Below, piece by piece: positions 27,827 through 56,328 of a stretch of DNA of 64,000 nucleotides. This DNA is from a virus (taxonomy: Duplodnaviria > Heunggongvirae > Uroviricota > Caudoviricetes): IMG/VR virus record IMGVR_UViG_3300033062_000614; one strand, 5' to 3'. Within the stretch, counting starts at the first letter, position 1. The number at the start of each line of letters is the position of its first letter. Position numbers and translations under genes: made by a program. A model generated the notes under the pieces. That model ran no database searches. It saw only the letters and a list, made by a program, of their open reading frames with translations, and was not told the DNA's origin.

Positions 27827-28057
27827 ATGGACGCTAACGATTTACTAAGACAACAGATAATTGAAAAGACTCTGCCCGCATCTGCCTCCAAAGAAGAGAA
27901 AGTTGAGGGGTCTTCTGCCGCCTCAGGAGACCTCCTCAGCCAATCTCTCAAGCTAAGAGAAGATATTGAAAAGCGAGAAGAGGCGGATAAGAACAAGCTG
28001 CGGGAGAATTTCATAAAGAATGTTAACATAGATTTGATAAAGGGGATTATGAGATGA
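27827..28057 (+). CDS. hypothetical charged protein
   Basis: ATG start, ATGA coupling to the next gene. Confidence 0.35.
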   Translation: MDANDLLRQQIIEKTLPASASKEEKVEGSSAASGDLLSQSLKLREDIEKREEADKNKLRENFIKNVNIDLIKGIMR

Positions 28058-29043
28058 AAGAACTAGTCAAAGATTTGGTAAAGTTGTATGAGGGTCAAGA
28101 GCTTGAAGAGTCAAAGAAAGTTCTCCAAGCTGTTGCTCTACTCAAAGCCAAAGCTGGAGGAACTGCCGAAGAAAAGGTCAGCTTCTTGAAATCCAAAGGC
28201 TACTCAGACAATGAGATTATGGATGCCTTGAAGATGATTAAGGAGTCTTTGGATGATATGGAAGAGGCAGCCAAGAAGAAAAGCAAAGACCCAAAAGAGG
28301 ACATTGAGAAGCAGTTGCACTCTATGGGCTTCAAGAAGTCTGTTGCCAAAGGGCTAGCTCCTTCAGTCAAGAATATTGAAAAGATGAAGGTTGGAAAGGT
28401 CTATACAATTGGAGAAGCTCAACAGATTACTAGGGAAGAGCTTAAGAAGTTGAAAGATAAGTATGGGGCAAACGATTGGAACGACCAGGAGTTTGTTGAA
28501 TGGTATCGAAGAAATCACGGCACAGGCTACGAGATTGAGATTGTTGAAGCTATAGATTGGAAGAAGATACTTGCATCAGCTGCTATTATAGGGGCTTTGG
28601 CTACCGTGCCTGTTAAGGGATATGCTGAAGATGCGAACGTTGCTGACCTCTTCAACTTCCTTGGTAGGGTTGTAAATACTGTCCAAACTGCAAGAGGGGG
28701 CAACGCTGGGATGACTGACATTCTTGGAGCTATGACAGGTCAACAGACTTCTACAACAGGTGGATACTACGGAGGCTATGGAACACACCAAGCTACCCAA
28801 GGCTATGCAGTTTGGGGAGGCACAAGCGACCAAATGGTCTGCACTAGAGCAAATCAAGCAGATGTTGGAAAATACTTCAAGGTAATCAACCAGTCCGACA
28901 ACTCCGAGGTTGTAGTAAAGTGCACAAACGCAGATTCTACTCTGGGTAGGAATGTTGTAGTATCTCTAAGCCGAGGAGCCTTCGCACAGATTTCAGACTT
29001 GAACCAGAGTTCCGTATACGTAACAATACAAGAGGTTGACTAA
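28054..29043 (+). CDS. hypothetical virion-associated protein with CTS-like N-terminus
   Basis: N-terminus 'MKELVKDLVKLYEGQELEE' is a member of the shared N-terminal motif family. Gly/Thr-rich middle 'GQQTSTTGGYYGGYGTHQATQGYAVWGG'. Confidence 0.5.
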   Translation: MKELVKDLVKLYEGQELEESKKVLQAVALLKAKAGGTAEEKVSFLKSKGYSDNEIMDALKMIKESLDDMEEAAKKKSKDPKEDIEKQLHSMGFKKSVAKGLAPSVKNIEKMKVGKVYTIGEAQQITREELKKLKDKYGANDWNDQEFVEWYRRNHGTGYEIEIVEAIDWKKILASAAIIGALATVPVKGYAEDANVADLFNFLGRVVNTVQTARGGNAGMTDILGAMTGQQTSTTGGYYGGYGTHQATQGYAVWGGTSDQMVCTRANQADVGKYFKVINQSDNSEVVVKCTNADSTLGRNVVVSLSRGAFAQISDLNQSSVYVTIQEVD

Positions 29044-29228
29044 TGAGAAAACTCTTAGAAAAAGTCCAAGATGCTGTAGTAGTAACTGAAGCTCGTCATT
29101 TCAAGACTAAAGAAGATTTCATTAACTTCTTAAAGAATACATTGATTCCAGATTTAAGAAGGTCTGGAACTAACGAAACTGCGGACGATTTTGAGGAAGC
29201 TATATACTGGATGACGAAGGGTGCTTAA
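29043..29228 (+). CDS. small protein with CTS-like N-terminus
   Basis: 'MRKLLEKVQD…'. TAATG coupling. Confidence 0.45.
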   Translation: MRKLLEKVQDAVVVTEARHFKTKEDFINFLKNTLIPDLRRSGTNETADDFEEAIYWMTKGA

Positions 29229-29229
29229 T

Positions 29230-29496
29230 ATGAGACAGCTGTTTGAGATATTACTAGAGGTTGCTAAATACAACTACTCAAGTCTTGCTGATGAAGTAGG
29301 GCTTAGTGATGAAGTAAAAGACAGGTTCATCAGGTTTATGAAAGTCCGCTTTCCTAACAAGGAAGGCACCGATTGGGGCTATCACGAAACTTGGGCTCAA
29401 AGGTTCAAGAGGGGCGAGGAGTGGGAGTTCTCAGACTCCGAAAGCCGTGTAGCCTTACAGGTTGTAGATGCGAATTATTACGCAAACAAGAAATAA
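29230..29496 (+). CDS. small protein with CTS-like N-terminus
   Basis: ATG 29230 directly after the upstream stop gives 'MRQLFEILLEV'. The track GTG start at 29221 overlaps the upstream gene. Confidence 0.45.
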   Translation: MRQLFEILLEVAKYNYSSLADEVGLSDEVKDRFIRFMKVRFPNKEGTDWGYHETWAQRFKRGEEWEFSDSESRVALQVVDANYYANKK

Positions 29497-29556
29497 TATG
29501 TTCAAACAACTGTTTGAAAGATTACAGGAAGTCCAAAAAGAGGAAGAAACGAAATA

Positions 29557-29802
29557 GTGCTGATATTCTGCAAGATTACATTTTTGATTGCAGTTTGCCT
29601 GCTTTTGTATATTGTCATAGAGCTGTTAGTTGAAAAATGGAAGGAGGGTGATATGAGTGTAAAGGAGTTTATCAAGGAGGTGACTTTGCAAGAGGGCAAA
29701 AAGGTAAGCCTCTCGATTGCACAAGTTGCTGAGGTTTTGAAGATTGCAAATGAGTTGTTGGACGGTGAGCTATACAAGCTCATCAAGAGGGTCAAGGGTT
29801 GA
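29557..29802 (+). CDS. hypothetical small protein (start uncertain)
   Basis: An internal ATG at 29653 is preceded by GGAAGGAGGGTG. The upstream part would be a TM helix. Confidence 0.3.
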   Translation: MLIFCKITFLIAVCLLLYIVIELLVEKWKEGDMSVKEFIKEVTLQEGKKVSLSIAQVAEVLKIANELLDGELYKLIKRVKG

Positions 29803-30017
29803 AGGCTCGCATAGTTCTTTGTATTCTAATACTAGTGGGCATAGCGTATCTACTAGGATTAGCTTATGTCGTCAGATATAGGCGACCCAAGGTTGAAGAG
29901 GTAAAGACCTACTACCCTGATTTTGAGGTTGCTTATATGGAGGACGTAACTATCGAGATTTGGAAGGATGGCAAAAAGGAAACCATCAAGTTGCCGCATT
30001 TGAAAATCAGTAAGTAG
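29799..30017 (+). CDS. small membrane protein
   Basis: TTG start overlapping the upstream stop. 'ARIVLCILILVGIAYLLGLAYVV' TM helix. Confidence 0.35.
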   Translation: MKARIVLCILILVGIAYLLGLAYVVRYRRPKVEEVKTYYPDFEVAYMEDVTIEIWKDGKKETIKLPHLKISK

Positions 30018-30035
30018 AGAAAAAGGAGAATTAGT

Positions 30036-30233
30036 ATGAAGGGTAAAGTGAAGTGGTTCAGCAATCAGAAAGGGTATGGGTTCATCAGCACAGAAGAAGG
30101 CAAAGATGTGTTCGTGCACCATACCTCAATCTTAGGCGAAGGCTACAAGACATTGGCAGAAGGGCAAGAAGTTACGTTCGAGGTTGAATCTACAGCAAAG
30201 GGCGAGCAAGCAGTAAAAGTCAGCAAGTTGTAA
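30036..30233 (+). CDS. Cold-shock protein (CspA family)
   Basis: '[32 protein letters not shown]…EGQEVTFEV…KGEQAVKV' carries the RNP1 'KGYGFI' and RNP2 'VFVHH' motifs. 65 aa. RBS AAAAGGAG. Confidence 0.85.
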
Positions 30234-30253
30234 ATAACCAAGGAGGAGAAGAG

Positions 30254-31117
30254 ATGAAGAAGTTAATGGTAATACTGCTAGCGATGCTTCTGATGACTTC
30301 AGGTATTGCACTAGCAGAGGTTACAAAGTTTGACAAGAAGAATCTGGAGTTTGGATTAGAGTATAACTACGCAGACAAGGATATCCAAGATGTTGAGCTT
30401 TTGTCTGTCAACATCCCTGATGTGTTGAATGGCAATCTGGTTTTGGTAAACCAGAAACTCCATCTCAACCAAGAGTTGGCTACAGTAGGCTACAAACTTG
30501 GGGACTTGTTGACCCCGTATGCTATACTAGGTATTTCACAATTGAATGGAAATACAAGATTGAATGGCGACATAGCTACCGAATGTTGGAGTGCTGGAGC
30601 GACCTTACTTGAAATACCTTACAACAAGGGCGGTTCTGCATTCACTTATGGCTTGGGAGCAAAAGGCAACCTATTGGAACTTCCTGCTCAAGTAATCCTT
30701 GGCTATGATGTAAGAATGACGACATTCAAAGGTGACTCAAATAACAATATAGTGCTTTTGCCTGGCGATTGTGGATTTGAGCTAGGTGCAAAGAAAGAAA
30801 TCAAATACTTGGAATTGAACACATTGCTCTCTGCAAGTAGAGAGTTCAAACTTACAAACAAGGACGGTTCTGACCGTAAGTATCTTCAGTCTATTACCCC
30901 GATGTTGGGTTTCAAATATAGCAGGGTTGACATCAATGGCAAGACTACAGTCAATATAGAGGACGCAACTGTTGCATCTGAACAGAATGTAAAGGGTGAC
31001 CTGTATTCTGCAGTTGTGGGAGTAAGCTGTAAAGTTACAAGCAACATAGATGTAAAGGCAACTGGTTCGTTTGGCGGTGACAAAGGGTTTGGAGTAGCAG
31101 CAACTTACAGATTCTAA
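30254..31117 (+). CDS. Secreted outer-membrane β-barrel-like protein
   Basis: Signal peptide 'MKKLMVILLAMLLMTSGIALA|EV'. Alternating hydrophobic/polar β-strand patterning. C-terminal 'GVAATYRF' ends in Phe, the OMP β-barrel C-terminal signature. RBS AAGGAGGAG. Confidence 0.5.
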   Translation: MKKLMVILLAMLLMTSGIALAEVTKFDKKNLEFGLEYNYADKDIQDVELLSVNIPDVLNGNLVLVNQKLHLNQELATVGYKLGDLLTPYAILGISQLNGNTRLNGDIATECWSAGATLLEIPYNKGGSAFTYGLGAKGNLLELPAQVILGYDVRMTTFKGDSNNNIVLLPGDCGFELGAKKEIKYLELNTLLSASREFKLTNKDGSDRKYLQSITPMLGFKYSRVDINGKTTVNIEDATVASEQNVKGDLYSAVVGVSCKVTSNIDVKATGSFGGDKGFGVAATYRF

Positions 31118-31235
31118 GGTTCAAGGGACGGGAGTTTTAGCAAGAGCAAGCCAAAGTTCAGTTGGTAACACAGTTACCGTTGTAAAAATGCCCTAGCTCC
31201 TAGGCTTCTCCCGTTCTACCAAAAAAGGGCTTTAT

Positions 31236-31571
31236 ATGTTTAGACAACTATTTGGATTACTAGAACATACAATCGAAGAGGTTGAAGAAGATTTGACTGA
31301 CCTCATAGAAATACAATCTAGCGAACCTTCGGTCAAAACGGATGAGTATATGCGGGGTCTTGCCAATGGGTTGATATGTGCAAGAAATTGTGTCAATCAG
31401 CTAGACCCTGTTTACATAGAGAACAAGGTAGAGGAATATACGATGTCTAAGAAAGACTTGATTGATATGCTAGTCAGTCAAGGTAAGTCTTGGGATGCTA
31501 TTATAGCTAGAATACCTGCCTTCAAAGGCGACAAAGAGGCAAAAGAGATTTATCAAGGACTTGTAAAATGA
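31236..31571 (+). CDS. hypothetical protein with CTS-like N-terminus
   Basis: 'MFRQLFGLLEHTIEE'. Confidence 0.45.
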   Translation: MFRQLFGLLEHTIEEVEEDLTDLIEIQSSEPSVKTDEYMRGLANGLICARNCVNQLDPVYIENKVEEYTMSKKDLIDMLVSQGKSWDAIIARIPAFKGDKEAKEIYQGLVK

Positions 31572-32026
31572 GAGAGCTTATAGAAAAACTTCAAGGTATA
31601 CCTGACTTAACAGAAAACTATGGCGAGATAGTAGTTCCAAAAGCAGGTATGAAAGCCCACTATGGAGAAGTCCTTGGGGTCTTTTGGTATGATACTAAGT
31701 CCAATAAGTTGGACTATTCTTCAGGCTCTGCAGGTCACGATACCTTCAAGGACTATAAGGAATACTTCAAGACTCCTGGTATGGTTCGGGGACGTTTAGG
31801 AAGAGATGAAGATGGCACAATCTACATATTGATATACGTTGGAGATTTTGAAGGTAGACCTCTGGCTGGCGATACTATACTAGATTTGTATAAACAAGTA
31901 TCAGAAGTCTCCAAGGTTCATATAAACTTTGTGGTAGATGAATTAGGTAGGGATTTGATAGAAGGCAACTTAAAAGAACAGGGCTTCGTTGGGGGAGTTG
32001 GAGCTCCTGGGATTGGCGGACTATGA
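31568..32026 (+). CDS. hypothetical protein with CTS-like N-terminus
   Basis: 'MRELIEKLQGIPDL'. ATGA coupling. Confidence 0.5.
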   Translation: MRELIEKLQGIPDLTENYGEIVVPKAGMKAHYGEVLGVFWYDTKSNKLDYSSGSAGHDTFKDYKEYFKTPGMVRGRLGRDEDGTIYILIYVGDFEGRPLAGDTILDLYKQVSEVSKVHINFVVDELGRDLIEGNLKEQGFVGGVGAPGIGGL

Positions 32027-32298
32027 GAAAACTACTAGAGAAGACTTTGAAGATTCAATTGGTTGAGAAGACTTCTATACCTCCAGATATGCAGAGAGAG
32101 CTAGAAGACTATGAGTTACACGTAGCTTCTGATATTGGAGAAGTGCCAGTAAACGCTAAGGGCGATACGGTTGATAAACTTGTGGCTTGGTGGAGAGCTA
32201 ACGGCAAGCAGATTCTAGAGCTTGAAGACCAACTTGCCAATGACGTAATCAAACCCTCAGAATATGACGTAAAGCTAAAGGCTTTGTTAAAGAAATGA
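32023..32298 (+). CDS. hypothetical protein with CTS-like N-terminus
   Basis: 'MRKLLEKTLKIQL'. ATGA coupling. Confidence 0.5.
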   Translation: MRKLLEKTLKIQLVEKTSIPPDMQRELEDYELHVASDIGEVPVNAKGDTVDKLVAWWRANGKQILELEDQLANDVIKPSEYDVKLKALLKK

Positions 32299-32549
32299 CA
32301 AAGATTAGAAAGCTATACGAGTTTCTCAAAGAGTCATTGGATTGGAAAGATGTAGAGCCGTATTGGTTCAAGGTCAACGACAAGCTCGAAGGCAAGAAAG
32401 ATTGGGAAGACGAGAAGTCCGCAGCTTACGAAGGCGGTGACGTAGACAACATCTTTGACCTGTTCCATACTAATAGAAGTGTAGCAATAGACCTTATCAA
32501 TATGGGGCTCAAGATGCTTGGCTCGAAAGAGCAATTGCCTTATGGATAG
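32295..32549 (+). CDS. hypothetical protein with CTS-like N-terminus
   Basis: 'MTKIRKLYEFLKESLD'. ATGA coupling. Confidence 0.45.
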   Translation: MTKIRKLYEFLKESLDWKDVEPYWFKVNDKLEGKKDWEDEKSAAYEGGDVDNIFDLFHTNRSVAIDLINMGLKMLGSKEQLPYG

Positions 32550-35838: not shown

Positions 35839-36234
35839 ATGGCTATGATGGATTTTACTAAAGTTTCTATACTTGAACGAATAGCCCAGATAGAGAAAAA
35901 CTTCAGGGGCACCAAGTTTGATGCCTTGGTTGACCAGCTCTTGGAGTTCTATCAGAAGAATAGCTACAAGGCGATGGAAGAAACAATCAAACAATTCCCA
36001 ACCGAAGAGAAGATGTTGGCTCAGCTGGTTGAGAAGTTGAAGAACAAGTCTGTCTATGTTACTCTGAAGAAAATCATAGAGAACAAAGAGATGACTGATG
36101 AGCAGAGACTCAAAGGCGTTTCTTCCTTGATTACGCACGTAGCAATCGAAATCGAACAAGGCAACAAGGAATACAAGATGTTGTTGCCTATGCTATATGA
36201 GAAGGTAGGAACTTTAGTATACAAGTTGAGATAA
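35839..36234 (+). CDS. hypothetical helical protein
   Basis: RBS AAAGAGGTAAG. Confidence 0.4.
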   Translation: MAMMDFTKVSILERIAQIEKNFRGTKFDALVDQLLEFYQKNSYKAMEETIKQFPTEEKMLAQLVEKLKNKSVYVTLKKIIENKEMTDEQRLKGVSSLITHVAIEIEQGNKEYKMLLPMLYEKVGTLVYKLR

Positions 36235-36752
36235 TGAAGAATCTTCTAAATATAACTTTGGGTGTTGCGGCAGTTGTGTCAGCAATACCACAAACACAGC
36301 CTCCTATTACCCTAGCTGAGAGAGGTATCAACACACAAAAACTGCTTGATGCCGTAAAGCTGGTAGAGTCAAATGGAGGAAAAGATACCGAGCCTAGATT
36401 CGAATATTCGGTATACCGCAAGCTACGCAGAGACTACAACATATTGAGACCGCATATACAAGAAGCTATACAGAAATACGGCTTCAAGAAGTTGGCGACC
36501 TCGTATGGACCATATCAAGTCCTTGGTTCGACTGCGGTATTCCTAGGCTTCGAGGGTGACCCTAGAGAGCTAATGCAAGAGTCCGTCTGTAAAGAGTGGG
36601 CATCCCGATACGTTAGGTATCTGATTTCCTCGGATAAGACTCATAGCCTAACCGATGTCGTATCGGCATACAATGCAGGGCTAGGTGGCATAGGTAAAAA
36701 TCCAGACTATACAAATAGAATTCTAGAATGCTATAAGGGAGGCGATAAATGA
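36234..36752 (+). CDS. Secreted lysozyme-like/lytic-transglycosylase-like protein (putative)
   Basis: Signal peptide 'MKNLLNITLGVAAVVSAIPQ'. 'LVESNGGKD…YGPYQV' weakly resembles the SLT/GH23 E-S…G…YGLMQ motif. Confidence 0.35.
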   Translation: MKNLLNITLGVAAVVSAIPQTQPPITLAERGINTQKLLDAVKLVESNGGKDTEPRFEYSVYRKLRRDYNILRPHIQEAIQKYGFKKLATSYGPYQVLGSTAVFLGFEGDPRELMQESVCKEWASRYVRYLISSDKTHSLTDVVSAYNAGLGGIGKNPDYTNRILECYKGGDK

Positions 36753-39700
36753 AAGGGCTTTATGATTTCCTAAAAGAAGGAGATAACATATTTGAAAAGA
36801 CATATACTTGGGGCTATGAGGTCTTGAAAGCTCCAGAAGGTGGACCAGGGACTGCCACATTGAAGAGCACTATAAAGGGCATTCCTGGCGTAAGACTTGT
36901 AACCTTCCCTTCTGCTTATATGGGTCATACATCTGTTAGAATCACTGCCAATTCTAGAGAAGCCCTTTCTAAAGCCCTTACTATATTACAAGATTATGGC
37001 TACATTGACAGTGTTGCCGATGGAATGAGAAGCGTAACATCAGAAGCAGAATATGATGCCCATCAACCTGCTGACGTTGCTGCGGGCAAGGAAGTTGCTA
37101 GTCAATCTGCTGAGTTTCACAAAGCCCACGAACAGGTCTTTGGAAGTTCCTCTGGTGGAGCCCAAGATGTGCAAGAAACTGGAGAGATGGGTCACGGTGA
37201 TATTACACAAGGTGGGGAAGATTATGAGTGGGCAAAGGCTATTGAGGAGGACGTCAAGGAGATAGAAAAGATTACAAAGGGTAAGTTGAAATTTGAGGGT
37301 ATGAAGCCCTTCGACAAATACCGTGGTCCATATGCTGCTACTAGCTTAGGTAGGATTTGGGATGCAGGAGTTGAAGGTGAGAAATACTTGTTTATGGAAA
37401 ACTCCAACTGGGTTGGCACAGCCCAAGAGCTAGCACAAGCAATCAATGGAGATGCGACCGCTAGGGCTTTAGTAGTCAACCAAGCCAAGACCGCTGCTGG
37501 AGAGCCTACCGAACCTGACTTTAACCCTGCCCAAATGAAGTTCCCCTTCGCTGAGTCCTGTGTCAAGAGTATTAAAGAAGCAGACATAGACAAATATACC
37601 AAGCACGAGGAATATACTCCTGAAGAGTTTGACAAAAGGGGATTCTATCTTTCAGATGACCAGAAGAAAACCGTAGAGACTGCTAAAGCGGAGGGCAAGA
37701 AACTGTTAGCTTCTATCTCTTACCTACCTTTTGGAAACTATCTTATGCATCTGTCTATAATAGAGGGCAAGGTTCCTAACCCTAAAGATACCGAAGACAA
37801 GCAAAGGCAAGATATGACTGAAGCCCTTGACCCTAGAATACCCGACCAAGCAATTGACTTTCGGTATATCTCTGGAACCAAGACCTTCAAGAACGGCACG
37901 AAAGAGTATAACTTGTTAAATGCTCTAGAAGATAAGGCTTGGGAAGACTACTTAGATGTTATGGCAGGGTCAGGCACTACGGTTGAATACGACCTCGTCA
38001 GAGATGTCTTTACTGCTAGTAATGTAGTAGGGGAATCTACTAAGCGGTCAAAGTCTGCTAAGGTATTGAGAGAACAGAAGATAAACGAACAAGAACCCCC
38101 GCCAGAACCAGCTCCAGAGACAGGTGCAGAGATACCAGAAGAGCCAACCCTAGAAGAGCCTCCTGCAGAGCCTCCTAAAGAAGAGAAACCTAAAGAAGAG
38201 GAAGAGCCTAAGAAAGAGGAGCCTGTCAAGGAGAAACCCTCATACACTAAGGAATACTTCGGGTCAAAAGGAACTGATAAGCACTATTACTTTATCCACA
38301 AGATGACCGAAGATGGTATGACGGTTGACGATTTACAAGTCCTTGATATTGAGGATAACATAGTCTTCTCCGCCAAAGAAAAACAAATGGATGTATTAGG
38401 TGAGAGGGCTTTCTTGAAAGCAGCAGCTGAAGCTACAGGCATAGATATGATAGCCTATGATGTGGTAATGCGGTATAAAATGCTTGAAGAGGAGCCTCCT
38501 TTGGAAGAGAAACCCGAAGACGAAGTGCCTGAGTTAAAACCCAAAGAGGAGGAAAAACCCGAACAGAAGTCTGAGCCAGAAGTTGGACCAAAGAGTGAAG
38601 AGGAGGCTCCTCCCAAAGAAAGCTTTAAGCGACCCGCCAAACAAAAGATTGAGGAAGGTTACGAGCAGATTGGTTCAGGTAAGTTACCTAACAAGTATTA
38701 CGTAACAGGCTCTGGCGATTACTATATGATGGTAAAGAGAGGCACGCTTGACTGGGCTTCTGAGCAACTTAAAGACTTCAAGCCTAAGTCTAAGAAGTAT
38801 GGGGTATTCAATACCTATAAAGAGGCGACTGCTGCAGTAGATACCGCATCAGCCTCAGAGTTTGGTAGTGAACCTAATCCTGCAGGTATCAATACTATAA
38901 CTGTTGAAGACCATTTGACAGGAGAGCTTCTACACTATGGGTTTGTTGCCTATAAGCAAGCTGGGTATCGCTATGAGATTGAGCAGTTTGGCGATACTAA
39001 GTTTACAGCAGAGAAGATGAAACAAGCTGGGCAGACCTTTGAGACTGGAGACAGTCCTGGTCCAGAGAAGTGCGTAAAGTGCGGAGTTCATATTGGCACT
39101 AAGGTAGCACAGAACTTCGGTGGCAAGTGTCCTGAGTGTTGGGAAGAGGACGAGAAGGCTGCTGGAAAAATGGACGAAGCCAAGCTTCCTAAGGTAGTCC
39201 TTGCAGACTTGAAGAAGCTTATGTCTGAGCCGTATGACGAGATTGCTCACAAGCTAGATGTATCTCACGAAACCGTCAAGGCTCTGCTTCAGGCTCTTAT
39301 GGTGCACGCTGAGGGAGAGAAAGAATCAATCTATGACAAGAAGCTTAAAGAGGGCACTTGGGCTACTCCAAATACTCAAGCTAAGAAACAAGCTCTGTTA
39401 GCATTCCTTGATGGGTTAGACGAAGGTGAGCTTGAGCCCTTGGAAGACTTCTTGTATTCTAAGCTCGGAGATGATGAGCTCTTTGATGAACTTGAAGATA
39501 TTGTTAAGCCCGTATGCAAGCCTATTGCTAAGGCTATTAGAAAGAAATTGAAAGACCTCAACATAGTAATAGAGTCCTCGATGGACGAAACTGTAAAGCT
39601 TCGCAAGATGACCGATGATGACCGTATGGGCTTTGCAGGTGCAGAGGGTGAGGCAATGATTGGAGATATACATACCTCGGAGGGTGCAGGTATTGTTATC

Positions 39701-40798
39701 GTAGACCAAGCGGGCATTGCGATTATAATTGGAGATGAGAAGCCGATAGAGTTTCACAAGGAGATGGTATTTGATGATGGTATAAGGCTTGTGCAAGCAT
39801 TCAAAGAGCCCATCAGTATAGACTCCTTGAAGGCTATGGGATTCGTTAACATAACGGAGTCTAAAAAGGAGTCCAAGAAAATGAAAAACTTAAAAGAAGC
39901 TGATGCAGTTCCTGAAAAGGGAGATAATCCTGAAACTACAATACCTGTCTCTGGCACAAAGACCCCAGAGAAAGAACCGAAGAAAGAGGAACAACCTACA
40001 ACTCAAGAGAAACCAGTAGAAGTTGGCGAACCTCAAAATCAAGTAACCGAATTGAAGGACAAAGAGGAGGTGAAGGACAAAGTGAAAGAGGCTAAAGAGA
40101 AGGATATAAAGGATAAGATTACAGAGATATTCAAGTTCCTGGATGAGGAATGGTCGAAGTTTCCAACAAAGGCTGAAGCAATCGCAAAGTTGACTACAAA
40201 GTTCGGTATTGGTGAGGATATGGCAAGGGCAACGCTAGGGGTTGCTGAATACTACAACGGCAAGCTAGACGATGGCACACCCGTAGCAGAGCCTGTGGCA
40301 CCTGCCCCTGCACTAACCCCTGAGCCTCCTCCTGTTGCTCCAGCACCTGTAGCAATGGAAGCAAAGCTACCAGATTTGTCAAAACAGGAAGATGATATCA
40401 AGAAAGCATTGCTTGAAAAGCATCTAGGCAAAAAGGTAGATGAGGATAAAGACAAAGAGGCAAAAGAGAAAGAAGAGAAGGAAAAGAAAGAAAAAGAGGA
40501 AAAGGAAAAGAAAGAGAAGGAAGCTAAGGAAAAGAAGAAAGTCAAAGAAGATGTGCAGGAAGATGTAAATATCAATGTCACAACCGATAAGCAAGATATC
40601 CAAGTTACTGCGGTTGAGGACGGTGGAGTTCAGACTACGGTAGTAGACAAGGCAACTGGTGCAGAGACCGCTGCTGTGGCACCTGCTCCTGAAGTGCCAG
40701 CTGTTGAAGCTCCAGCACCTGTGGAAGAGGAACCTGTTGCGATTGAATGTGAAGAGAGTATTCACAAGTTTATGAAGTCTTTCGGTAATAGAGGATAA
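36749..40798 (+). CDS. Giant (1349 aa) low-complexity virion protein, candidate ejected/internal protein
   Basis: CTS-like N-terminus 'MKGLYDFLKEGD'. Long P/E/K linkers, zinc ribbon 'CVKCG…CPEC', and KE-repeat tract 'KEKEEKEKKEKEEKEKKEK'. The C-terminal module is shared with the ORF at 54060. Confidence 0.6.
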   Translation: MKGLYDFLKEGDNIFEKTYTWGYEVLKAPEGGPGTATLKSTIKGIPGVRLVTFPSAYMGHTSVRITANSREALSKALTILQDYGYIDSVADGMRSVTSEAEYDAHQPADVAAGKEVASQSAEFHKAHEQVFGSSSGGAQDVQETGEMGHGDITQGGEDYEWAKAIEEDVKEIEKITKGKLKFEGMKPFDKYRGPYAATSLGRIWDAGVEGEKYLFMENSNWVGTAQELAQAINGDATARALVVNQAKTAAGEPTEPDFNPAQMKFPFAESCVKSIKEADIDKYTKHEEYTPEEFDKRGFYLSDDQKKTVETAKAEGKKLLASISYLPFGNYLMHLSIIEGKVPNPKDTEDKQRQDMTEALDPRIPDQAIDFRYISGTKTFKNGTKEYNLLNALEDKAWEDYLDVMAGSGTTVEYDLVRDVFTASNVVGESTKRSKSAKVLREQKINEQEPPPEPAPETGAEIPEEPTLEEPPAEPPKEEKPKEEEEPKKEEPVKEKPSYTKEYFGSKGTDKHYYFIHKMTEDGMTVDDLQVLDIEDNIVFSAKEKQMDVLGERAFLKAAAEATGIDMIAYDVVMRYKMLEEEPPLEEKPEDEVPELKPKEEEKPEQKSEPEVGPKSEEEAPPKESFKRPAKQKIEEGYEQIGSGKLPNKYYVTGSGDYYMMVKRGTLDWASEQLKDFKPKSKKYGVFNTYKEATAAVDTASASEFGSEPNPAGINTITVEDHLTGELLHYGFVAYKQAGYRYEIEQFGDTKFTAEKMKQAGQTFETGDSPGPEKCVKCGVHIGTKVAQNFGGKCPECWEEDEKAAGKMDEAKLPKVVLADLKKLMSEPYDEIAHKLDVSHETVKALLQALMVHAEGEKESIYDKKLKEGTWATPNTQAKKQALLAFLDGLDEGELEPLEDFLYSKLGDDELFDELEDIVKPVCKPIAKAIRKKLKDLNIVIESSMDETVKLRKMTDDDRMGFAGAEGEAMIGDIHTSEGAGIVIVDQAGIAIIIGDEKPIEFHKEMVFDDGIRLVQAFKEPISIDSLKAMGFVNITESKKESKKMKNLKEADAVPEKGDNPETTIPVSGTKTPEKEPKKEEQPTTQEKPVEVGEPQNQVTELKDKEEVKDKVKEAKEKDIKDKITEIFKFLDEEWSKFPTKAEAIAKLTTKFGIGEDMARATLGVAEYYNGKLDDGTPVAEPVAPAPALTPEPPPVAPAPVAMEAKLPDLSKQEDDIKKALLEKHLGKKVDEDKDKEAKEKEEKEKKEKEEKEKKEKEAKEKKKVKEDVQEDVNINVTTDKQDIQVTAVEDGGVQTTVVDKATGAETAAVAPAPEVPAVEAPAPVEEEPVAIECEESIHKFMKSFGNRG

Positions 40799-40803
40799 TA
40801 GAC

Positions 40804-40918
40804 GTGGCGGAGATTGCTAAATGATGCGACACTATTGCTCATTGCAGCAATATCGCCAAACCTGATGAGCATAGAGCTGTAGTTCGGTAGAGATACCGAC
40901 AGGCTCTACTCCGCCCAC
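40804..40918 (+). other. structured intergenic element (nested hairpins)
   Basis: Outer inverted repeat GTGGCGGAG…CTCCGCCCAC encloses inner hairpins ATTGCT(CATTGC)AGCAAT and CGGTA(GAGA)TACCG. Confidence 0.3.
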
Positions 40919-47074: not shown

Positions 47075-49765
47075 ATGATTGCTCTAAAATCAAGAGTGGT
47101 ATACGAGGGAAAGGAGGGCACGGTAACCCAGCTTTTCCCAAAGATACAGAAATGTATCTTGAGGTTCGATGACGGGAGTCAACGAACCTTGAGGCTTCAG
47201 GACTTTAAGCCCTTTGCATTAAAGGAGAGGATAGTGTCGGTAGCGGAGCTTTTCGAAACCGACCAAACTAAGCTCCCAAAAGGAACGCTTTGTAGAGTCC
47301 GCTATCCTATTGCTAATCTAGGTGTTAAGAACAAAAACAATAGGATGTATGACCGTGCAGTATTTGAAAAGGTTTTATCAGATAAAGAAATAGTAGAGAA
47401 GATTAAGAGCCGATGTCTCTTTGGGGACTTAGAGCACCCAGAAGAGTCAGCTATCAAATTAAACAAAGATACTACCTCTCACATAGTATCGGGCATAGTT
47501 ATTGAAGGCGATGTAGTAAAAGCCGATTTCGATATCCTGCCTACTCCTGCAGGTCAATTCATTGACACTTTACTTAGAGCTGGTTGCCAAGTTGGGACTT
47601 CTACAAGAGCCGAAGGTGAGCTAGAGGAAATCAATGACGAGAAAGACGGCAAGTATTACCGAGTAGTGCCTGAGAGCTATCAGTTTGTTACGATAGACTT
47701 TACAGGAGACCCGTCAACATTTGGCTCAGAGCCAGAGAAGATTATGCGTGCGGTTCAAGGTGAATATGAATCCCATAGAGTTAATAAGGAGGTAGCCCTT
47801 GCAATTCTTGAGAGCTTACATACCGAAGAGGCTACTAAGCTCAGAGATAACATATCAATTGACAAACAACATAAGGGTTGCAAAAATCACGTTGGTGAGA
47901 AGAAGTGCACAGAGTGTAAATGTAAAGAGATTAAAGATGGTGAGGTTATAGATGAGTCAATGAAATGGAATCCTGCTATTGTTATTGATGGAAAGACCTA
48001 CCAGATTGACCGTATAGCTTATACTCTCACTAATGTAGGAGACCCTGCAGATGTTAAGAAGTTTGATGACCTAGACTTAGTAACTAAACAAGCTGTCCTA
48101 AAGCGTATATCTGAGGAAGAGGTTATAGAGCCTGATAAGGATAAGCCTTCTACAGAGCCTATTATAGATAAGAAAAAGGATATTCCACCTCCTAAATGCC
48201 CACTCTGCGGTGAAGATTTAGAGGATGTAGGTAACTATAAGTGGGATTGCCCTTTAGGTTGCTTACCACAAGCTATGGAACTTGGACAAATAGAAGACTT
48301 TGCTAAGCCCTTCAACGAAGCAAAAGGCGACATAGATTACTCCAAACTCTACTATGATAAGGAGATTAAGGTATCTCACCCAGAGGTTGCAGATGGGCGT
48401 GATTTAGAGCTTAGTGTGCAGATTAAAGGAAATGATGGAAGACCTGATGCACAGGTAGGGCACTTTGGTTACAACTTCTGGTTGAGACCGCCCAAGGCGA
48501 TTAAGGGAGAGCCTTATGCTTCTAGGATGGCGTTAGAGAAGGCTATTGAGACAATGCTTAAGCACAAGGGCTTTACGATTAAGGGATGGGTTGAAAAGTC
48601 TGTTGAAGCTAAGGAGATGAAGGAAGCTACCTTATCTCCATCAGAAATCTCCTCAATCTTGTTTACTTATTCTGTAGATGGCTATTGGGCAAAAGATAAG
48701 AAAGGTGAAACTTTATTTATAGGAACTTACGACAAACTCAAGAAAGAGGGTTATCCTGAAGATATGCTTTCCAATGCTATGAAAAATCCAGGACAATGGC
48801 AAGTTGTGGAGAGCAAACTAAAGGAAATGAAGCTTAATCACGAAGGCAAGGAATACTCTGTATATTTACTTGATGATGGAACTATGGATACTGTCATACA
48901 AGTAAATGGAAAAGAAGCTAGATTTGATGGAGAGTATACTGCTCAATATAGGGATAAGGATGGAGCTATGACAGAACAAGGGTTGATAACCTTAGCAAAA
49001 GAAGCTATTGATAGTGGTATGATAGATGAAAGCCAAGTCAAGAAAGCTCTAGCTTGTATCAAAGAATTGAAGATTGAACTTGCTACAGCTATAGCTGAGC
49101 GTGATACGGCTATTTCTAGAGCTAAGGAACGCTTGACTGTCTTGACAGAAAACTATCAAAAAGATGTTGCATCTCTTACAGAAACTCTCAACAAGCAATC
49201 TTCAGAGATTGAACTTATAAATAGCCTAGCAAAGAGTCAAAATGGAATGCTTGTTGAGGCTACTGTTAAGTTTAAGGCATTAGAAGAGAGCTTACAAAAA
49301 CAAAGAGCCGAATTCGAAGCCGAGCTTACAAAAATAAAGGAGGCTAATAATGAAACTATTCGGCAAATTAAAGGAAATCTTGAAAAAGCTATTTCAGAAA
49401 AAACCGAAGCAAACCATAAAGAAATAAATCAATTGAATGAAAAATCGAAACAACTTGTTGATGCCCACACTTTGGAACTCGACAAGACTAAATCTGAGCA
49501 TCAAAAACAAATGCTAAGAAAGTATTACGAGACAGTCCTCAAAGTCTCAGGTCTCAAGCTTACCGAGAAGGCTCTAGCACTTCTAGAAACCTGCCAGAGT
49601 GAGCAAGAGATTGACAGCACTATTGAGGATATAAGGAAAACGCTGAGGGAAAGTTTCTTACACTCTGAGAAATTGACCGATGTGAAAGTTCCTGTGTCTA
49701 CTCTTACGCCTGGTGAGAGTCAAATAAAGAACCAGGTGGGAAAAGCATTTAGTGGAATGAAGTAA
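47075..49765 (+). CDS. Prohead core protease (gp21-like) fused to scaffold-like coiled-coil domain
   Basis: The N-terminal ~230 aa parallel T4 gp21: 'NKNNRMYDRAVFEKV' matches 'NRNKRLYPKRILEKAV', 'LFGDLEHPEES' matches 'ALGELNHPPRAN', 'AGCQVGTSTRAEGEL' matches 'AGWIPGVSSRGLGSL', and 'YQFVTIDFTGDPS' matches 'FKLTVGVDAVWGPS'. The rest is a Zn ribbon plus a long coiled coil, and the gene sits immediately upstream of the major capsid gene. Confidence 0.65.
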   Translation: MIALKSRVVYEGKEGTVTQLFPKIQKCILRFDDGSQRTLRLQDFKPFALKERIVSVAELFETDQTKLPKGTLCRVRYPIANLGVKNKNNRMYDRAVFEKVLSDKEIVEKIKSRCLFGDLEHPEESAIKLNKDTTSHIVSGIVIEGDVVKADFDILPTPAGQFIDTLLRAGCQVGTSTRAEGELEEINDEKDGKYYRVVPESYQFVTIDFTGDPSTFGSEPEKIMRAVQGEYESHRVNKEVALAILESLHTEEATKLRDNISIDKQHKGCKNHVGEKKCTECKCKEIKDGEVIDESMKWNPAIVIDGKTYQIDRIAYTLTNVGDPADVKKFDDLDLVTKQAVLKRISEEEVIEPDKDKPSTEPIIDKKKDIPPPKCPLCGEDLEDVGNYKWDCPLGCLPQAMELGQIEDFAKPFNEAKGDIDYSKLYYDKEIKVSHPEVADGRDLELSVQIKGNDGRPDAQVGHFGYNFWLRPPKAIKGEPYASRMALEKAIETMLKHKGFTIKGWVEKSVEAKEMKEATLSPSEISSILFTYSVDGYWAKDKKGETLFIGTYDKLKKEGYPEDMLSNAMKNPGQWQVVESKLKEMKLNHEGKEYSVYLLDDGTMDTVIQVNGKEARFDGEYTAQYRDKDGAMTEQGLITLAKEAIDSGMIDESQVKKALACIKELKIELATAIAERDTAISRAKERLTVLTENYQKDVASLTETLNKQSSEIELINSLAKSQNGMLVEATVKFKALEESLQKQRAEFEAELTKIKEANNETIRQIKGNLEKAISEKTEANHKEINQLNEKSKQLVDAHTLELDKTKSEHQKQMLRKYYETVLKVSGLKLTEKALALLETCQSEQEIDSTIEDIRKTLRESFLHSEKLTDVKVPVSTLTPGESQIKNQVGKAFSGMK

Positions 49766-51235: not shown

Positions 51236-51271
51236 CTACCTAGCTAGAGCTGAAAGGCTCTAGCTAGGTAG
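51236..51271 (+). terminator. strong stem-loop after major capsid gene
   Basis: Perfect 15-bp inverted repeat CTACCTAGCTAGAGC(TGAAAG)GCTCTAGCTAGGTAG. No canonical U-run, so it may be an RNA-stability or attenuation element. Confidence 0.45.
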
Positions 51272-55394: not shown

Positions 55395-55918
55395 GACAAC
55401 TTCTTGAAAGACTGCTAGAAAAAGAGGTATATGCTGAGCTTGAAGATATGCCGTTGAAAAAACAGGCTCTTGTAACTCTTCTAGTTGAAATTCAGAAGAA
55501 GATGGAAGATTTGAAGGCTCGTATTGAAGAGTATAAAGGAAGGCGTGGTAAGATAGAGCCTGATATTCTTAAAGCTCTACACAAACTAGAAGCTAATGGA
55601 GTAAGATTAGGAAAGGTTCTAGTTTTCATAACACAGGGGCGAGGCTTCGCATCTTTCAAGGAAGTTATGGAAGTTGTGCAAAAGGAGATAAGCCCTAAAG
55701 TTGCGAAGCTTTTGAAAGCTACTTATGATGAGCTCTCCAAAGAGAAAACTAGGGGAGAAGAGCTTCGTGTAAAGCTAGGACGTGAAAGTCTGTTAGATGA
55801 GGATTGGAAAGATGTATGGCAGAACATTGTTAATTTCTTTGCCAAAGTTTTCAATCCGTTGTTAGATAGCATATCTGGTTCAATTGAAGATGTTGAAAAA
55901 CTGCTTGGGATAAAATGA
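55391..55918 (+). CDS. hypothetical protein with CTS-like N-terminus
   Basis: 'MRQLLERLLEKE'. ATGA coupling. Confidence 0.45.
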   Translation: MRQLLERLLEKEVYAELEDMPLKKQALVTLLVEIQKKMEDLKARIEEYKGRRGKIEPDILKALHKLEANGVRLGKVLVFITQGRGFASFKEVMEVVQKEISPKVAKLLKATYDELSKEKTRGEELRVKLGRESLLDEDWKDVWQNIVNFFAKVFNPLLDSISGSIEDVEKLLGIK

Positions 55919-56328
55919 CGCCATTAACTATTGCTGTTGATTTTGACAATACGTTGTTCTATATGAACCCCGATAAGGAGATTGTTGGAGAGCCTATAAC
56001 TCATCACATCAAAGCTCTCCAACAACTCTACGGTATGGGTCACACAATTTACATATTCTCAGGCAGACCAGCGGAACAGATTTTACCTGTGCTTCAGCAA
56101 TATAATATACCTGTGCATAGGGTTAATGACGTAGTGCTTGATGCTAGTAAAGAGTTCTATGAGTTACCTAATAGCAAAAAGCCTCACTACGACATACTAC
56201 TTGATGACAAGGCGTTAAACCCTTGGTGGTTTGATACCACAGATGAATTAGTTCAAAACGTTCTTAATATGGGTGATATTGTAAAACGCACTAATGGGAT
56301 TATGGGAGCTTTGAAATGCGGGAGCTAG
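55915..56328 (+). CDS. hypothetical protein
   Basis: ATGA coupling. Confidence 0.4.
   Translation: MTPLTIAVDFDNTLFYMNPDKEIVGEPITHHIKALQQLYGMGHTIYIFSGRPAEQILPVLQQYNIPVHRVNDVVLDASKEFYELPNSKKPHYDILLDDKALNPWWFDTTDELVQNVLNMGDIVKRTNGIMGALKCGS

What the first reader, a model, noticed from the sequence alone, without database searches (positions are those of the whole stretch)
36234..40798. 1349-aa low-complexity giant protein with a CTS-like N-terminus, downstream of a secreted transglycosylase-like gene
The giant ORF combines a folded N-terminal domain, long Pro/Glu/Lys linkers, a CxxC…CxxC ribbon and a KE-repeat tract. Its C-terminal block (Pro-rich segment, then 'K[LV]PDLSK.E.DIK.ALLE', then KE repeats) recurs in the 444-aa ORF at 54060–55394. 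Together with the adjacent signal-peptide lysozyme-like protein, it may be an ejected protein that spans or remodels the cell envelope during DNA entry. Alternatively it could be a tape-measure-like ruler.
Basis: seen in the sequence. Interest (0 to 1): 0.55.

Follow-up and report, generated by a model that had tools for sequence, protein, structure and literature searches.

The report
Giant head-cargo polyprotein of a phage
A 150-kDa phage protein made of at least six small shuffled domains on flexible linkers starts with the same kind of 10-residue tag that phage T4 uses to load proteins into its capsid. It is therefore most likely a capsid-packaged cargo protein cut by the head protease, not a tail ruler or an envelope-spanning channel.

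Summary
The 172-aa SLT-family gene (36234-36752) and the 1349-aa ORF (36749-40798, ATGA overlap) are exactly as described, with P/E/K linkers, a CxxC…CxxC ribbon, a KE tract and a 19-aa motif shared with the 444-aa ORF.

The window is a very divergent myovirus with T4-type head genes: portal, S77 prohead protease and gp23-like capsid protein. The giant lies in this head module.

- Its N-terminus MKGLYDFLKE matches the T4 capsid-targeting sequence MKTYQEFIAE at the functional positions.
- The same leader type heads 11 other ORFs between portal and tail (0.45 expected).
- The N-terminal 800 residues are a mosaic of at least six mobile domains absent from Pfam.
- Module B is preceded by [LIVM]xE↓TGEM in 35 of 54 testable homologues, and 8 homologues start M-TGEM.
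- Modules B and E sit inside the protease–scaffold polypeptide of a related phage (56% and 48% identity).

Best reading (confidence about 0.6): a leader-targeted, protease-processed capsid-interior cargo polyprotein, probably ejected with the DNA. Domain functions are unknown.

The tape-measure and envelope-spanning readings are not supported, and the SLT adjacency is not conserved. I rate it a new variant of a known kind. Virion mass spectrometry would settle it.

The parts
36234..36752 (+). 172-aa SLT-family lytic transglycosylase with an N-terminal signal-peptide-like segment. It is translationally coupled to the giant, but that linkage is not conserved.
   Evidence: homologues carry PF01464, and E45-S46, GP.Q and AYNAG are invariant; relatives place the gene elsewhere and give it a leader.
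36749..40798 (+). The giant ORF: 1349 aa, 150 kDa, pI 4.8.
   Evidence: An identical copy is in a second sample.
36749..36778 (+). CTS-like leader MKGLYDFLKE, with L4, F7 and L8-K9-E10. The predicted cut is after E10.
   Evidence: PMC9026906 and PMC8442874.
36800..37036 (+). Module A (aa 18-96), ferredoxin-like beta-alpha-beta fold. Elsewhere it occurs as stand-alone proteins of 82-100 aa.
37169..37180 (+). Predicted internal prohead-protease site V141-Q-E143|T144.
   Evidence: [LIVM]xE|TGEM in 35 of 54 homologues, and 8 homologues start M|TGEM.
37178..37534 (+). Module B (aa 144-262), a compact alpha/beta domain with no known fold match. In relatives it lies inside S77 protease fusion proteins.
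   Evidence: (pLDDT 90.3).
37814..38038 (+). Module C (aa 356-430, IDFRY…VEYD). It is mobile, repeated within other proteins, and present in polyprotein-like giants.
38075..38239 (+). P/E/K linker 1 (76% P+E+K).
38240..38482 (+). Module D (aa 498-578, KEYFGSKGTD…), shared with P0015, P0016 and P0117.
38492..38656 (+). P/E/K linker 2 (71% P+E+K).
38666..39019 (+). Module E (aa 640-757). It is 48% identical to a segment of the L008 protease-scaffold protein and 37% identical to P0039.
39041..39157 (+). Zinc ribbon, CxxC-15-CxxC (C775, C778, C794, C797).
   Evidence: Weak zinc-finger hits.
39158..39859 (+). Uncharacterised region aa 804-1037: an HTH-like stretch, an acidic helical stretch and a beta-rich stretch. 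No homologues were found.
   Evidence: all negative or weak.
39860..40102 (+). P/E/K and K/E linker 3.
40103..40360 (+). Small helical segment plus a Pro-rich spacer. It is weakly similar to the end of the DUF5661 region of the 444-aa ORF.
40361..40417 (+). Conserved 19-aa motif AKLPDLSKQEDDIKKALLE, which ends in L-L-E.
40418..40546 (+). K/E tract, encoded by a 24-nt tandem repeat. A single-alpha-helix spacer is my inference.
40547..40795 (+). Acidic, T/V/A/P-rich C-terminal tail.
54060..55394 (+). 444-aa leader-bearing mosaic protein (MRELVTFLRE). It has DUF5661 at aa 96-157 and the shared motif at 54660-54716. Its PEGWE…KKHKDI module is shared with the protease fusion P0017.
47075..49765 (+). 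896-aa prohead protease ORF: an N-terminal extra domain ending LFE61|T, the S77 domain, middle modules, and a conserved scaffold-like coiled-coil C-terminus. This is the presumed processing enzyme.
49789..51210 (+). gp23-like major capsid protein. LFE71|T lies just before the conserved fold.
25930..27621 (+). T4 gp20-like portal, the upstream limit of the leader-rich head module.
28054..32549 (+). Cluster of leader-bearing ORFs: 28054, 29043, 29230, 29653, 31236, 31568, 32023 and 32295.
55391..57287 (+). Two further leader-bearing ORFs: 55391 (MRQLLERLLE) and 56316 (MRELVTRLCE, with a weak nucleotidyltransferase signal).

Best explanation
The giant ORF encodes a capsid-interior cargo polyprotein of a divergent myovirus with T4-type head genes.

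Shown:
- It lies in the head-gene module.
- It begins with a 10-residue leader of the T4 capsid-targeting-sequence type.
- Its first 800 residues are a string of at least six small mobile domains joined by disordered P/E/K linkers.
- Two of these modules are part of the prohead protease-scaffold polypeptide in a related phage.
- Across homologues, one module is immediately preceded by the cleavage motif of T4-type prohead proteases.

Inferred:
- During late infection the leader docks the protein onto the scaffolding core of the prohead.
- The S77 protease (ORF 47075-49765) removes the leader after E10 and cuts at least at VQE143|T144. It possibly also cuts at other [LI]xE sites that flank the linkers.
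- The folded modules stay inside the head with the DNA and leave with it at infection, acting on the host as T4 IPs and Alt do.
- The acidic linker peptides may be expelled from the head, as core fragments are in T4.

The biochemical activities of the modules are unknown.
For: (1) Context. T4-type portal, S77 prohead protease, gp23-like capsid protein and sheath are present. The giant lies between portal and protease.

(2) Leader. MKGLYDFLKE has hydrophobic residues at positions 4 and 7 and L-x-E at 8-10. In T4 IPIII these positions carry capsid targeting (4, 7) and processing (8, 10) (PMC9026906).
- 12 of 96 window ORFs start M[KR].[LM][LVIFY] against 0.45 expected, and 11 of them lie between portal and tail.
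- 9 of 96 have [LI]xE at exactly residues 8-10 against 1.3 expected, P=7e-6.
- The DNA upstream is not conserved and the codons differ, so selection acts on the peptide.
- Positive control: the same pattern in T4 returns 6 of 269 ORFs, among them IPII, IPIII and gp24.

(3) Module B boundary. Of 61 homologues, 54 have enough upstream sequence to test.
- 35 of 54 have [LIVM]xE directly before TGEM.
- 15 of 54, from another lineage, have A before TGEM, often as RSRRA. The same RSRRA motif recurs after the domain.
- 8 proteins start M-TGEM.

(4) Fusion to the protease. The L008 1545-aa protein is protease + modules + scaffold-like C-terminus and lies directly upstream of the capsid gene. It contains module B (56% identity, E=5e-53, after INE|) and module E (48%, E=5e-31). 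P0003 and P0017 are further protease fusions that carry module B.

(5) The capsid protein and the protease of this phage have LFE|T just before their conserved domains.

(6) A second giant, P0002 (2107 aa), carries module B and the zinc ribbon and lies 1.5 kb downstream of a T4-type portal.

(7) Other carriers of these modules look like polyproteins with periodic separators: 18 copies of ExNP in P0100 and 9 copies of WEKRWxRR in P0097.
Against: - There are no proteomic or other physical data. Everything rests on sequence.
- The protein and every segment except the KE tract are acidic (pI 4.8). T4 IPs are highly basic (PMC8442874). Acidity is more typical of core proteins that are degraded and expelled.
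- P3 at the E143 site is Val, which is less common than Leu or Ile among homologues.
- [LI]xE occurs 21 times in this E-rich protein. Internal sites cannot be predicted from the motif alone, and their apparent position at linker edges was not statistically tested.
- Relatives of the neighbouring SLT protein carry the same leader followed by a signal-peptide-like segment with AxA. So the leader may not be exclusively a capsid-targeting signal.
- The other giant, P0002, starts MNFIDLVNHL, without this leader.
- No orthologue of the whole giant was found, so conservation of its architecture could not be examined.
- Fold searches gave no functional clue.
Confidence: 0.6

Rival explanations
1. Assembly-only core or scaffold accessory. 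The giant is targeted to the prohead core by its leader but serves as a structural filler or spacer that helps set core size or organisation. The protease degrades it and its fragments are expelled before or during DNA packaging, so nothing functional is delivered to the host.
For: - It is uniformly acidic (pI 4.8, net charge about -84), like T4 core proteins rather than T4 IPs (PMC8442874; PMC9026906).
- It has many [LI]xE sites (21).
- In relatives the modules sit between the protease and the scaffold-like C-terminus of one polypeptide.
- In SPN3US, long propeptides are removed in pieces (PMC10052503).
Against: - The modules are compact, confidently folded domains (pLDDT 87-90).
- They also exist as stand-alone small proteins and are shuffled widely. 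That fits effectors better than filler.
- The scaffold function appears to be supplied already by the coiled-coil C-terminus of the protease ORF.
Confidence: 0.2
2. The giant, together with the adjacent secreted SLT enzyme, is ejected to span or remodel the cell envelope during DNA entry, as T7 gp14/15/16 or the P22 ejection proteins do.
For: - The start and stop codons overlap as ATGA with an SLT-family gene.
- The giant is very long and has extended linkers.
- In relatives the SLT protein carries the head-type leader, so a packaged murein hydrolase is conceivable in those phages.
Against: - The adjacency is not conserved. In L007, L020/L021 and a fourth contig the SLT gene lies between the neck gene and the sheath, next to a cupin gene, with no giant.
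- The window's SLT copy lacks the leader and starts with a signal-peptide-like segment. This implies Sec export, not packaging.
- The giant has no TM-grade hydrophobic segment.
- It has no similarity to known ejectosome proteins in Pfam, PHROGs or PDB.
- As a contractile-tailed phage it probably has a tail-tip device for envelope penetration (established knowledge of T4 gp5; not checked here).
Confidence: 0.05
3. Tape-measure-like ruler for the tail.
For: Only its length and low-complexity tracts.
Against: - It lies in the head module, 19.5 kb upstream of the sheath gene and not among tail tube or baseplate genes.
- It has globular alpha/beta modules and Pro-rich linkers instead of a continuous helix.
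- Its modules occur in prohead protease fusions.
- It has no tape-measure family hit.
Confidence: 0.02
4. Capsid-surface decoration or fibre (Hoc-like), or a non-virion late protein whose N-terminal helix merely resembles the leader.
For: - A beads-on-a-string architecture with flexible linkers is common in surface fibres (general knowledge).
- There is no direct evidence for an interior location.
- The leader also occurs on an apparently exported enzyme in relatives.
Against: - The leader family is confined to the head module and ends in the protease motif.
- Modules B and E lie inside the protease-scaffold polypeptide of L008, which is necessarily internal.
- No Ig-like or other adhesin domains were detected.
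Confidence: 0.1

Closest known systems
[quoted passage not shown]
   Same: - A 10-residue N-terminal leader with hydrophobic residues at positions 4 and 7 and L/I-x-E at 8-10.
- A phage that encodes a gp21-type S77 protease, a gp23-type capsid protein and a gp20-type portal.
- Several otherwise unrelated genes share only the leader.
- Like Alt (682 aa), a large packaged protein.
   Different: - There is no sequence similarity beyond the leader.
- The protein is strongly acidic, whereas the IPs are basic.
- It is 2 to 14 times longer.
- It is a multi-module mosaic with disordered linkers and at least one predicted internal cut. T4 IPs are cut once, and Alt is cut at both ends.
Ejection and inner-body proteins of giant phages (phiKZ, 201phi2-1, SPN3US)
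   Same: Head-internal proteins processed after Glu by a gp21-related protease at a short motif. Long N-terminal regions are removed in several cuts, and paralogous families occur within the head gene cluster (PMC9026906, PMC10052503).
   Different: - Their motif is S/A-x-E, not L/I-x-E.
- Processing described so far removes propeptides and does not release several folded modules.
- No homology was detected.
Polyvalent proteins of phages and conjugative elements (Iyer et al. 2017, PMC5512222)
   Same: Very large multi-domain proteins encoded near portal and virion genes. They are predicted to be packaged and injected, with extensive domain shuffling.
   Different: - None of the hallmark domains (zincin-like MPTase, ART, MuF, ParB-like, PBECR, helicase or methylase) was detected by Pfam.
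- The modules here are tiny (65-130 aa) and uncharacterised.
- Processing is predicted to be by the prohead protease in trans, not by an in-built peptidase.
Prohead protease-scaffold fusion proteins (the lambda C/Nu3 type and similar arrangements in many tailed phages; from my general knowledge)
   Same: In this phage group the protease and a coiled-coil scaffold-like C-terminus are one polypeptide.
   Different: Here extra cargo modules are inserted between protease and scaffold in relatives. In this phage, related modules have moved to a separate giant gene that carries a leader.
T7 gp16 (internal core protein with an SLT domain)
   Same: An SLT-family enzyme encoded next to, or within, a large virion-internal protein.
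   Different: In this window the SLT enzyme is a separate, apparently Sec-exported 172-aa protein. Its adjacency to the giant is not conserved.

Membership tests
T4-type CTS-bearing internal head proteins | N-terminal leader of about 10 residues whose positions 4 and 7 are needed for capsid targeting (PMC9026906) | tested here: met
   MKGLYDFLKE has L4 and F7. T4 IPIII MKTYQEFIAE has Y4 and F7, read from NC_000866.
T4-type CTS-bearing internal head proteins | L/I-x-E at residues 8-10, the gp21 processing site | tested here: met
   L8-K9-E10. 9 of 96 window ORFs share this exact register against 1.3 expected. The T4 control recovers IPII, IPIII and gp24.
T4-type CTS-bearing internal head proteins | The phage encodes a gp21-family (S77) prohead protease and T4-type head proteins | tested here: met
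   PF03420 and phrog_207 in ORF 47075. PF07068 Gp23 and PF07230 Portal_T4 are also present.
T4-type CTS-bearing internal head proteins | Physically present in proheads and virions, with the leader removed | not testable with these tools
   This needs virion mass spectrometry or N-terminal sequencing.
T4-type CTS-bearing internal head proteins | Small, highly basic, DNA-associated mature protein (as described for IPI-III, PMC8442874) | tested here: not met
   150 kDa and pI 4.8, with all modules acidic. Alt shows that size is not strictly defining, but the charge differs.
Polyvalent proteins (Iyer et al. 2017) | Contains hallmark conflict domains (MPTase, ART, MuF, ParB-like, PBECR, helicase or methylase and others) | tested here: not met
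   No Pfam, NCBIfam or PHROG family at E<=0.01. Modules A, B and C have no Pfam model.
Polyvalent proteins (Iyer et al. 2017) | Many domains in one polypeptide, encoded with portal or virion genes | tested here: met
   At least 6 modules, located in the head module.
Tail tape measure proteins | Encoded between the tail tube or chaperone genes and the baseplate hub genes | tested here: not met
   The gene lies between portal and prohead protease. The sheath gene starts at 60321.
Tail tape measure proteins | Largely continuous alpha-helical or coiled-coil protein, or a match to a tape-measure family | tested here: not met
   Alpha/beta globular modules, Pro-rich linkers and no tape-measure hits.
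SLT lytic transglycosylases (PF01464), for the 172-aa neighbour | Match to the SLT family | tested here: inconclusive
   The protein itself has no hit at E<=0.1. However, 7 of 10 homologues at 44-50% identity carry PF01464.
SLT lytic transglycosylases (PF01464), for the 172-aa neighbour | Catalytic Glu in an E-S motif, plus the downstream GxxQ and AYNAG motifs (from my knowledge of family 1 lytic transglycosylases) | tested here: met
   E45, S46, G92-P93-x-Q95 and A145-Y-N-A-G149 are invariant in the 11-sequence alignment A1.
Envelope-spanning ejectosome proteins (T7 gp14/15/16 type, P22 gp7/16/20 type) | Membrane-inserting or hydrophobic segments, or homology to these proteins | tested here: not met
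   The maximum 19-aa hydropathy is 1.47, in a segment that contains D, E and Q. There are no family or PDB hits.

The most novel reading that the evidence does not exclude
Many tailed phages may load their capsids with arrays of small effector domains synthesised as single 'cargo polyproteins'. These would be either stand-alone giants with a capsid-targeting leader or insertions within the prohead protease-scaffold protein. The prohead protease would cut them apart at lineage-specific separators: [LIV]xE here, and RSRRA, ExNP or WEKRWxRR in other lineages. The modules, none of which is in Pfam, would be freely shuffled between these carriers. This would be an unrecognised, general packaging format for injected host-takeover or anti-defence proteins, and this 1349-aa ORF would be one example.
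Probability: 0.3. Interest if true: 0.75.

Novelty: new variant of a known kind. Interest (0 to 1): 0.55.

Why it matters
Injected capsid proteins are a phage's first weapons inside the cell, and outside T4 and a few giant phages they are almost unknown.

If this reading is right:
- The T4 capsid-targeting principle extends to phages whose capsid protein is only about 30% identical to that of any cultured phage.
- Such cargo could be predicted from sequence alone, using a leader family, the protease motif and module boundaries.
- The modules are candidates for new anti-defence or host-takeover functions.
- Natural leader and cleavage-site pairs could be reused to package foreign proteins in engineered phages.

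The prediction is directly testable by mass spectrometry or by a protease-substrate assay in E. coli.

Tried and rejected
Searches that found nothing for the giant:
- Pfam, PHROGs and NCBIfam gave nothing significant.
- blastn and tblastn against 50,697 phage records gave no match.
- The PDB sequence search gave none.
- Scans of IMG/VR and JGI metagenome contigs with aa 626-1040 found nothing.

Searches with technical problems:
- The search for homologous proteins with the whole giant scored only 8000 word-sharing candidates, probably swamped by K/E words.
- A second search with aa 626-1040 returned nothing, not even the query itself, so it is uninformative.

Structure work:
- Module A: only generic ferredoxin-like matches.
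- afdb50 was unavailable.
- A combined alignment for aa 1-445 failed because MAFFT misaligned the fragments, even with X-padding. Module C was therefore not modelled.

Transcription signals:
- Sigma-70 promoter and terminator scans were at chance level.
- The T4 late-promoter motif TATAAATA was not enriched.

Other ideas rejected:
- A recent duplication as the origin of the motif shared with the 444-aa ORF. The DNA is only 45/72 identical.
- A conserved DNA cassette as the origin of the leaders. The upstream DNA is unrelated and the codons differ.
- A dN/dS test. The only other copy is 100% identical.
- The giant as a DUF5661 member. It does not match the model.


Full report
**1. What is there**

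The window is a one-strand block of phage genes. It carries replication genes (family A polymerase, gp32, UvsX/RecA, SbcCD) followed by a T4-type head and tail set:
- portal, PF07230, at 25930-27621
- S77 prohead protease within an 896-aa ORF at 47075-49765
- gp23-like capsid protein at 49789-51210
- tail sheath at 60321-61913

The capsid protein is at most 31% identical to that of any of 50,697 deposited phages, so this is a deeply divergent myovirus with T4-type head genes.

The finding's coordinates are exact. A 172-aa ORF at 36234-36752 ends in TGA, which overlaps the ATG of a 1349-aa ORF at 36749-40798. A second metagenome sample holds a 100% identical 5-kb copy.

**2. The observation**

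All the listed features are real:
- three P/E/K-rich linkers at aa 443-497, 582-636 and 1038-1118
- a CxxC-15-CxxC ribbon (C775, C778, C794, C797)
- a K/E tract at aa 1224-1266, encoded by a 24-nt tandem repeat
- an acidic overall composition (pI 4.8, 150 kDa)

The similarity to the 444-aa ORF is modest but positional. BLASTP gives E=3e-4. The core motif is AKLPDLSKQEDDIKKALLE against AKVPDLSKSEEDIKMALLE, 15 of 19 identical, with only 45/72 identical nucleotides. It is a peptide-level module and not a recent duplication. The Pro-rich and KE parts are compositional.

The 172-aa protein has no Pfam hit of its own. Its homologues at 44-50% identity carry PF01464 (SLT), and the E-S, GP.Q and AYNAG motifs are invariant.

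**3. The N-terminal leader is one of a family**

Listing all ORF starts shows that the giant's MKGLYDFLKE is not unique.
- 12 of 96 ORFs begin M[KR].[LM][LVIFY] against 0.45 expected. Eleven of them lie between the portal and the first tail genes.
- Nine ORFs have [LI]xE at exactly residues 8-10 against 1.3 expected, P=7e-6. They include the giant (LKE), the 444-aa ORF (MRELVTFLRE), 55391 (MRQLLERLLE), 56316 (MRELVTRLCE), 29230 and 31236.
- Others have the motif at residues 4-6 (MRKLLE, MRELIE).
- The DNA upstream is unrelated and the codons differ, so the peptide is what is conserved.

In T4 the first ten residues of IPIII (MKTYQEFIAE) are the capsid targeting sequence. Residues 4 and 7 carry targeting and residues 8 and 10 carry processing by gp21, which cuts after L/I-x-E. 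The internal proteins share only this leader (PMC9026906; PMC3012670; PMC8442874).

As a control I read T4 itself. The pattern '[LI]xE at residues 8-10' returns 6 of 269 ORFs, among them IPII, IPIII and gp24. Alt, gp67, gp68, gp21 and gp22 carry the motif within the first nine residues, and IPI carries it at residues 17-19.

In this window the capsid protein has LFE71|T just before its conserved fold. The protease ORF has LFE61|T just before the S77 domain.

**4. The giant is a mosaic of mobile modules**

A full HMMER search of 1.8 billion representatives with aa 1-445 gave 138 hits, which fall into three separate blocks:
- module A (aa 18-96)
- module B (aa 140-260)
- module C (aa 356-430)

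Each block also occurs as a stand-alone small protein and in other multi-domain proteins. Local comparisons add module D (aa 498-578), module E (aa 640-757) and the zinc ribbon. None has a Pfam model.

AF2 models are confident:
- Module B has pLDDT 90.3 and an alpha/beta fold, with no PDB or BFVD match.
- Module A has pLDDT 86.6 and a generic ferredoxin-like fold.

No homologues were found for aa 804-1349, apart from the short motif.

**5. Evidence for a capsid-interior destination and for processing**

(a) Module B is part of S77 protease fusion proteins: P0003, P0017 and the 1545-aa protein of locus L008. The L008 protein has this order:
- protease (49% identical to the window's)
- several modules
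- module B (56% identity, E=5e-53), directly followed by module E (48%, E=5e-31)
- a coiled-coil C-terminus shared with the window's protease ORF

It lies immediately upstream of the capsid gene. Whatever is covalently part of the protease-scaffold protein is inside the prohead. L008 also uses the same leader family (MKKLLE.LLE).

(b) I examined 61 module-B proteins, of which 54 have enough upstream sequence to test.
- In 35 of 54 the residue before the invariant TGEM is Glu with L/I/V/M at P3, as in the giant's VQE143|T144.
- In 15 of 54, from another lineage, it is Ala, often in the motif RSRRA. The same RSRRA motif recurs after the domain.
- Eight proteins simply start M-TGEM.

So TGEM is a natural N-terminus, and what precedes it is a lineage-specific separator that matches the T4-type protease motif in this lineage.

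(c) Other carriers of these modules look like polyproteins. P0100 has 18 ExNP separators spaced 50-130 aa apart, and P0097 has nine WEKRWxRR motifs.

(d) A second giant, P0002 (2107 aa), has module B and the ribbon and lies 1.5 kb downstream of a T4-type portal.

**6. Most likely mechanism**

Shown: the points in sections 3 to 5.

Inferred:
- The leader docks the giant onto the scaffolding core.
- The S77 protease removes the leader after E10 and cuts at E143|T144.
- It may also cut at some of the [LI]xE sites that lie at linker edges: LRE442, INE447, LEE581, LEE587, IEE636, ITE1037, LKE1050 and LLE1223.
- The modules are retained with the DNA and ejected.

I give the capsid-interior, protease-processed cargo reading about 0.6.

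The main caveat is charge. Every module is acidic, unlike the basic T4 IPs. This fits a core protein that is degraded and expelled, which is the rival I rate at 0.2.

A second caveat concerns the SLT relatives. They carry the same leader followed by a signal-peptide-like segment with an AxA site. Either those enzymes are packaged, or the leader is not exclusively a capsid signal. I could not resolve this.

**7.

'Ejected protein' is compatible with the evidence. A partnership with the SLT enzyme is not.
- In L007, L020/L021 and a fourth contig the SLT gene sits in a conserved block: capsid, neck gp13, DUF5661/5662 genes, SLT, cupin, then sheath. There is no giant in that block.
- The window's copy lacks the leader and begins with a signal-peptide-like segment. 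It looks like an exported murein hydrolase, possibly the endolysin.
- The giant has no membrane-grade hydrophobic segment.

The tape-measure idea fails on gene position, predicted structure and family searches.

**8. Comparison with known systems**

The giant works like T4 CTS-bearing internal proteins and Alt. It meets the leader, motif and protease criteria. It fails the 'small and basic' description, and physical packaging cannot be tested here.

It resembles the polyvalent proteins of Iyer et al. (PMC5512222) in size, context and domain shuffling, but has none of their hallmark domains.

It resembles giant-phage ejection proteins in being processed after Glu (PMC10052503). Those phages use S/A-x-E, and the cuts described there remove propeptides.

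I found no description of protease-scaffold proteins that carry inserted cargo modules, or of module arrays with lineage-specific separators, in the literature I searched. That search covers open-access papers only.

**9. Verdict**

I rate it a new variant of a known kind, with moderate interest (0.55). The concept of capsid targeting and processing is established. The giant mosaic format, the un-annotated module families and their exchange with the protease-scaffold protein are not, and they yield sharp, testable predictions.

Noticed in passing
window 36234-36752, and homologues P0005-P0014 (alignment A1): Relatives of the SLT enzyme start with the head-type leader (MKELLEQLIE…LDE). A weakly hydrophobic Gly/Ala-rich segment follows and ends in AxA. 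Cutting at the [LI]xE sites would therefore expose a canonical signal peptide. The window's copy lacks the leader and starts directly with the signal-like segment. Whether these enzymes are packaged or exported is unclear.
   Followed up: partly
window 47075-49765: The prohead protease ORF is 896 aa. It has a 61-aa extra N-terminal domain ending LFE|TDQTKLP, the S77 domain, Cys-rich ribbons, globular middle modules, and a coiled-coil C-terminus conserved in P0003, P0017 and L008. There is no separate gp22-like scaffold gene before the capsid gene, so this looks like a protease-cargo-scaffold fusion.
   Followed up: partly
window 30254-31117: A 287-aa ORF with a classical signal peptide (MKKLMVILLAMLLMTSGIALA) and a sub-threshold match to the outer-membrane beta-barrel family (PF13505, E=3e-6). 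It is a phage-encoded OMP-like protein inside the head module.
   Followed up: no
window 4015-4032, 40872-40908, 51245-51262, 55554-55579: Four palindromic hairpins TAGAGC…GCTCTA, against 0.2 expected. Two lie directly after the stop codons of the giant and of the capsid gene. They are candidate terminators or RNA-processing or stabilising hairpins.
   Followed up: partly
window 56316-57287: A leader-bearing 323-aa ORF (MRELVTRLCE) with weak nucleotidyltransferase signals (NTP_transf_2 E=2e-4, MTPAP-like E=1e-4). It is a candidate packaged enzyme.
   Followed up: no
window 4169-6541: The family A DNA polymerase carries an N-terminal uracil-DNA-glycosylase superfamily domain (PF03167, E=8e-29) fused to the exonuclease and polymerase domains.
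   Followed up: no
window 12579-13355: A TET-associated glycosyltransferase (PF20691, E=1e-11). It suggests hypermodified (glycosylated hydroxymethyl-pyrimidine) DNA in this phage.
   Followed up: no
window 9661-12582: SbcD-like phosphoesterase and SbcC/Rad50-like ATPase are fused in one 973-aa ORF. In T4 they are separate genes (gp47 and gp46).
   Followed up: no
window 35557-35793: An acyl carrier protein (PP-binding, E=8e-11; phrog_5934) is encoded two genes upstream of the SLT gene, between the fibre-like LamG proteins and the giant.
   Followed up: no
T4 NC_000866 18966-19130 (locus L016): The T4 hypothetical protein gp61.1 (54 aa) begins MKTFKEFIKE, a near-perfect CTS with I-K-E at residues 8-10. 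It lies in an early-gene region. It may be an unrecognised internal protein, or a false positive of the pattern.
   Followed up: no
P0100 (1479 aa) and P0097 (1390 aa), hits: Two other giants that carry module C are built of units of 50-160 aa separated by strictly periodic short motifs: 18 copies of ExNP and 9 copies of WEKRWxRR. They look like polyproteins with lineage-specific cleavage sites. Their genomic context could not be retrieved.
   Followed up: partly
loci L009, L012, L013 (IMG/VR contigs): Other phage lineages have their own families of N-terminal leaders on runs of small ORFs: MSKAQELL..LLE, MKV..G.T.RL.E and MKFKIVE. Most end in [LIV]xE. This suggests that lineage-specific capsid-targeting-type leaders are widespread.
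   Followed up: partly
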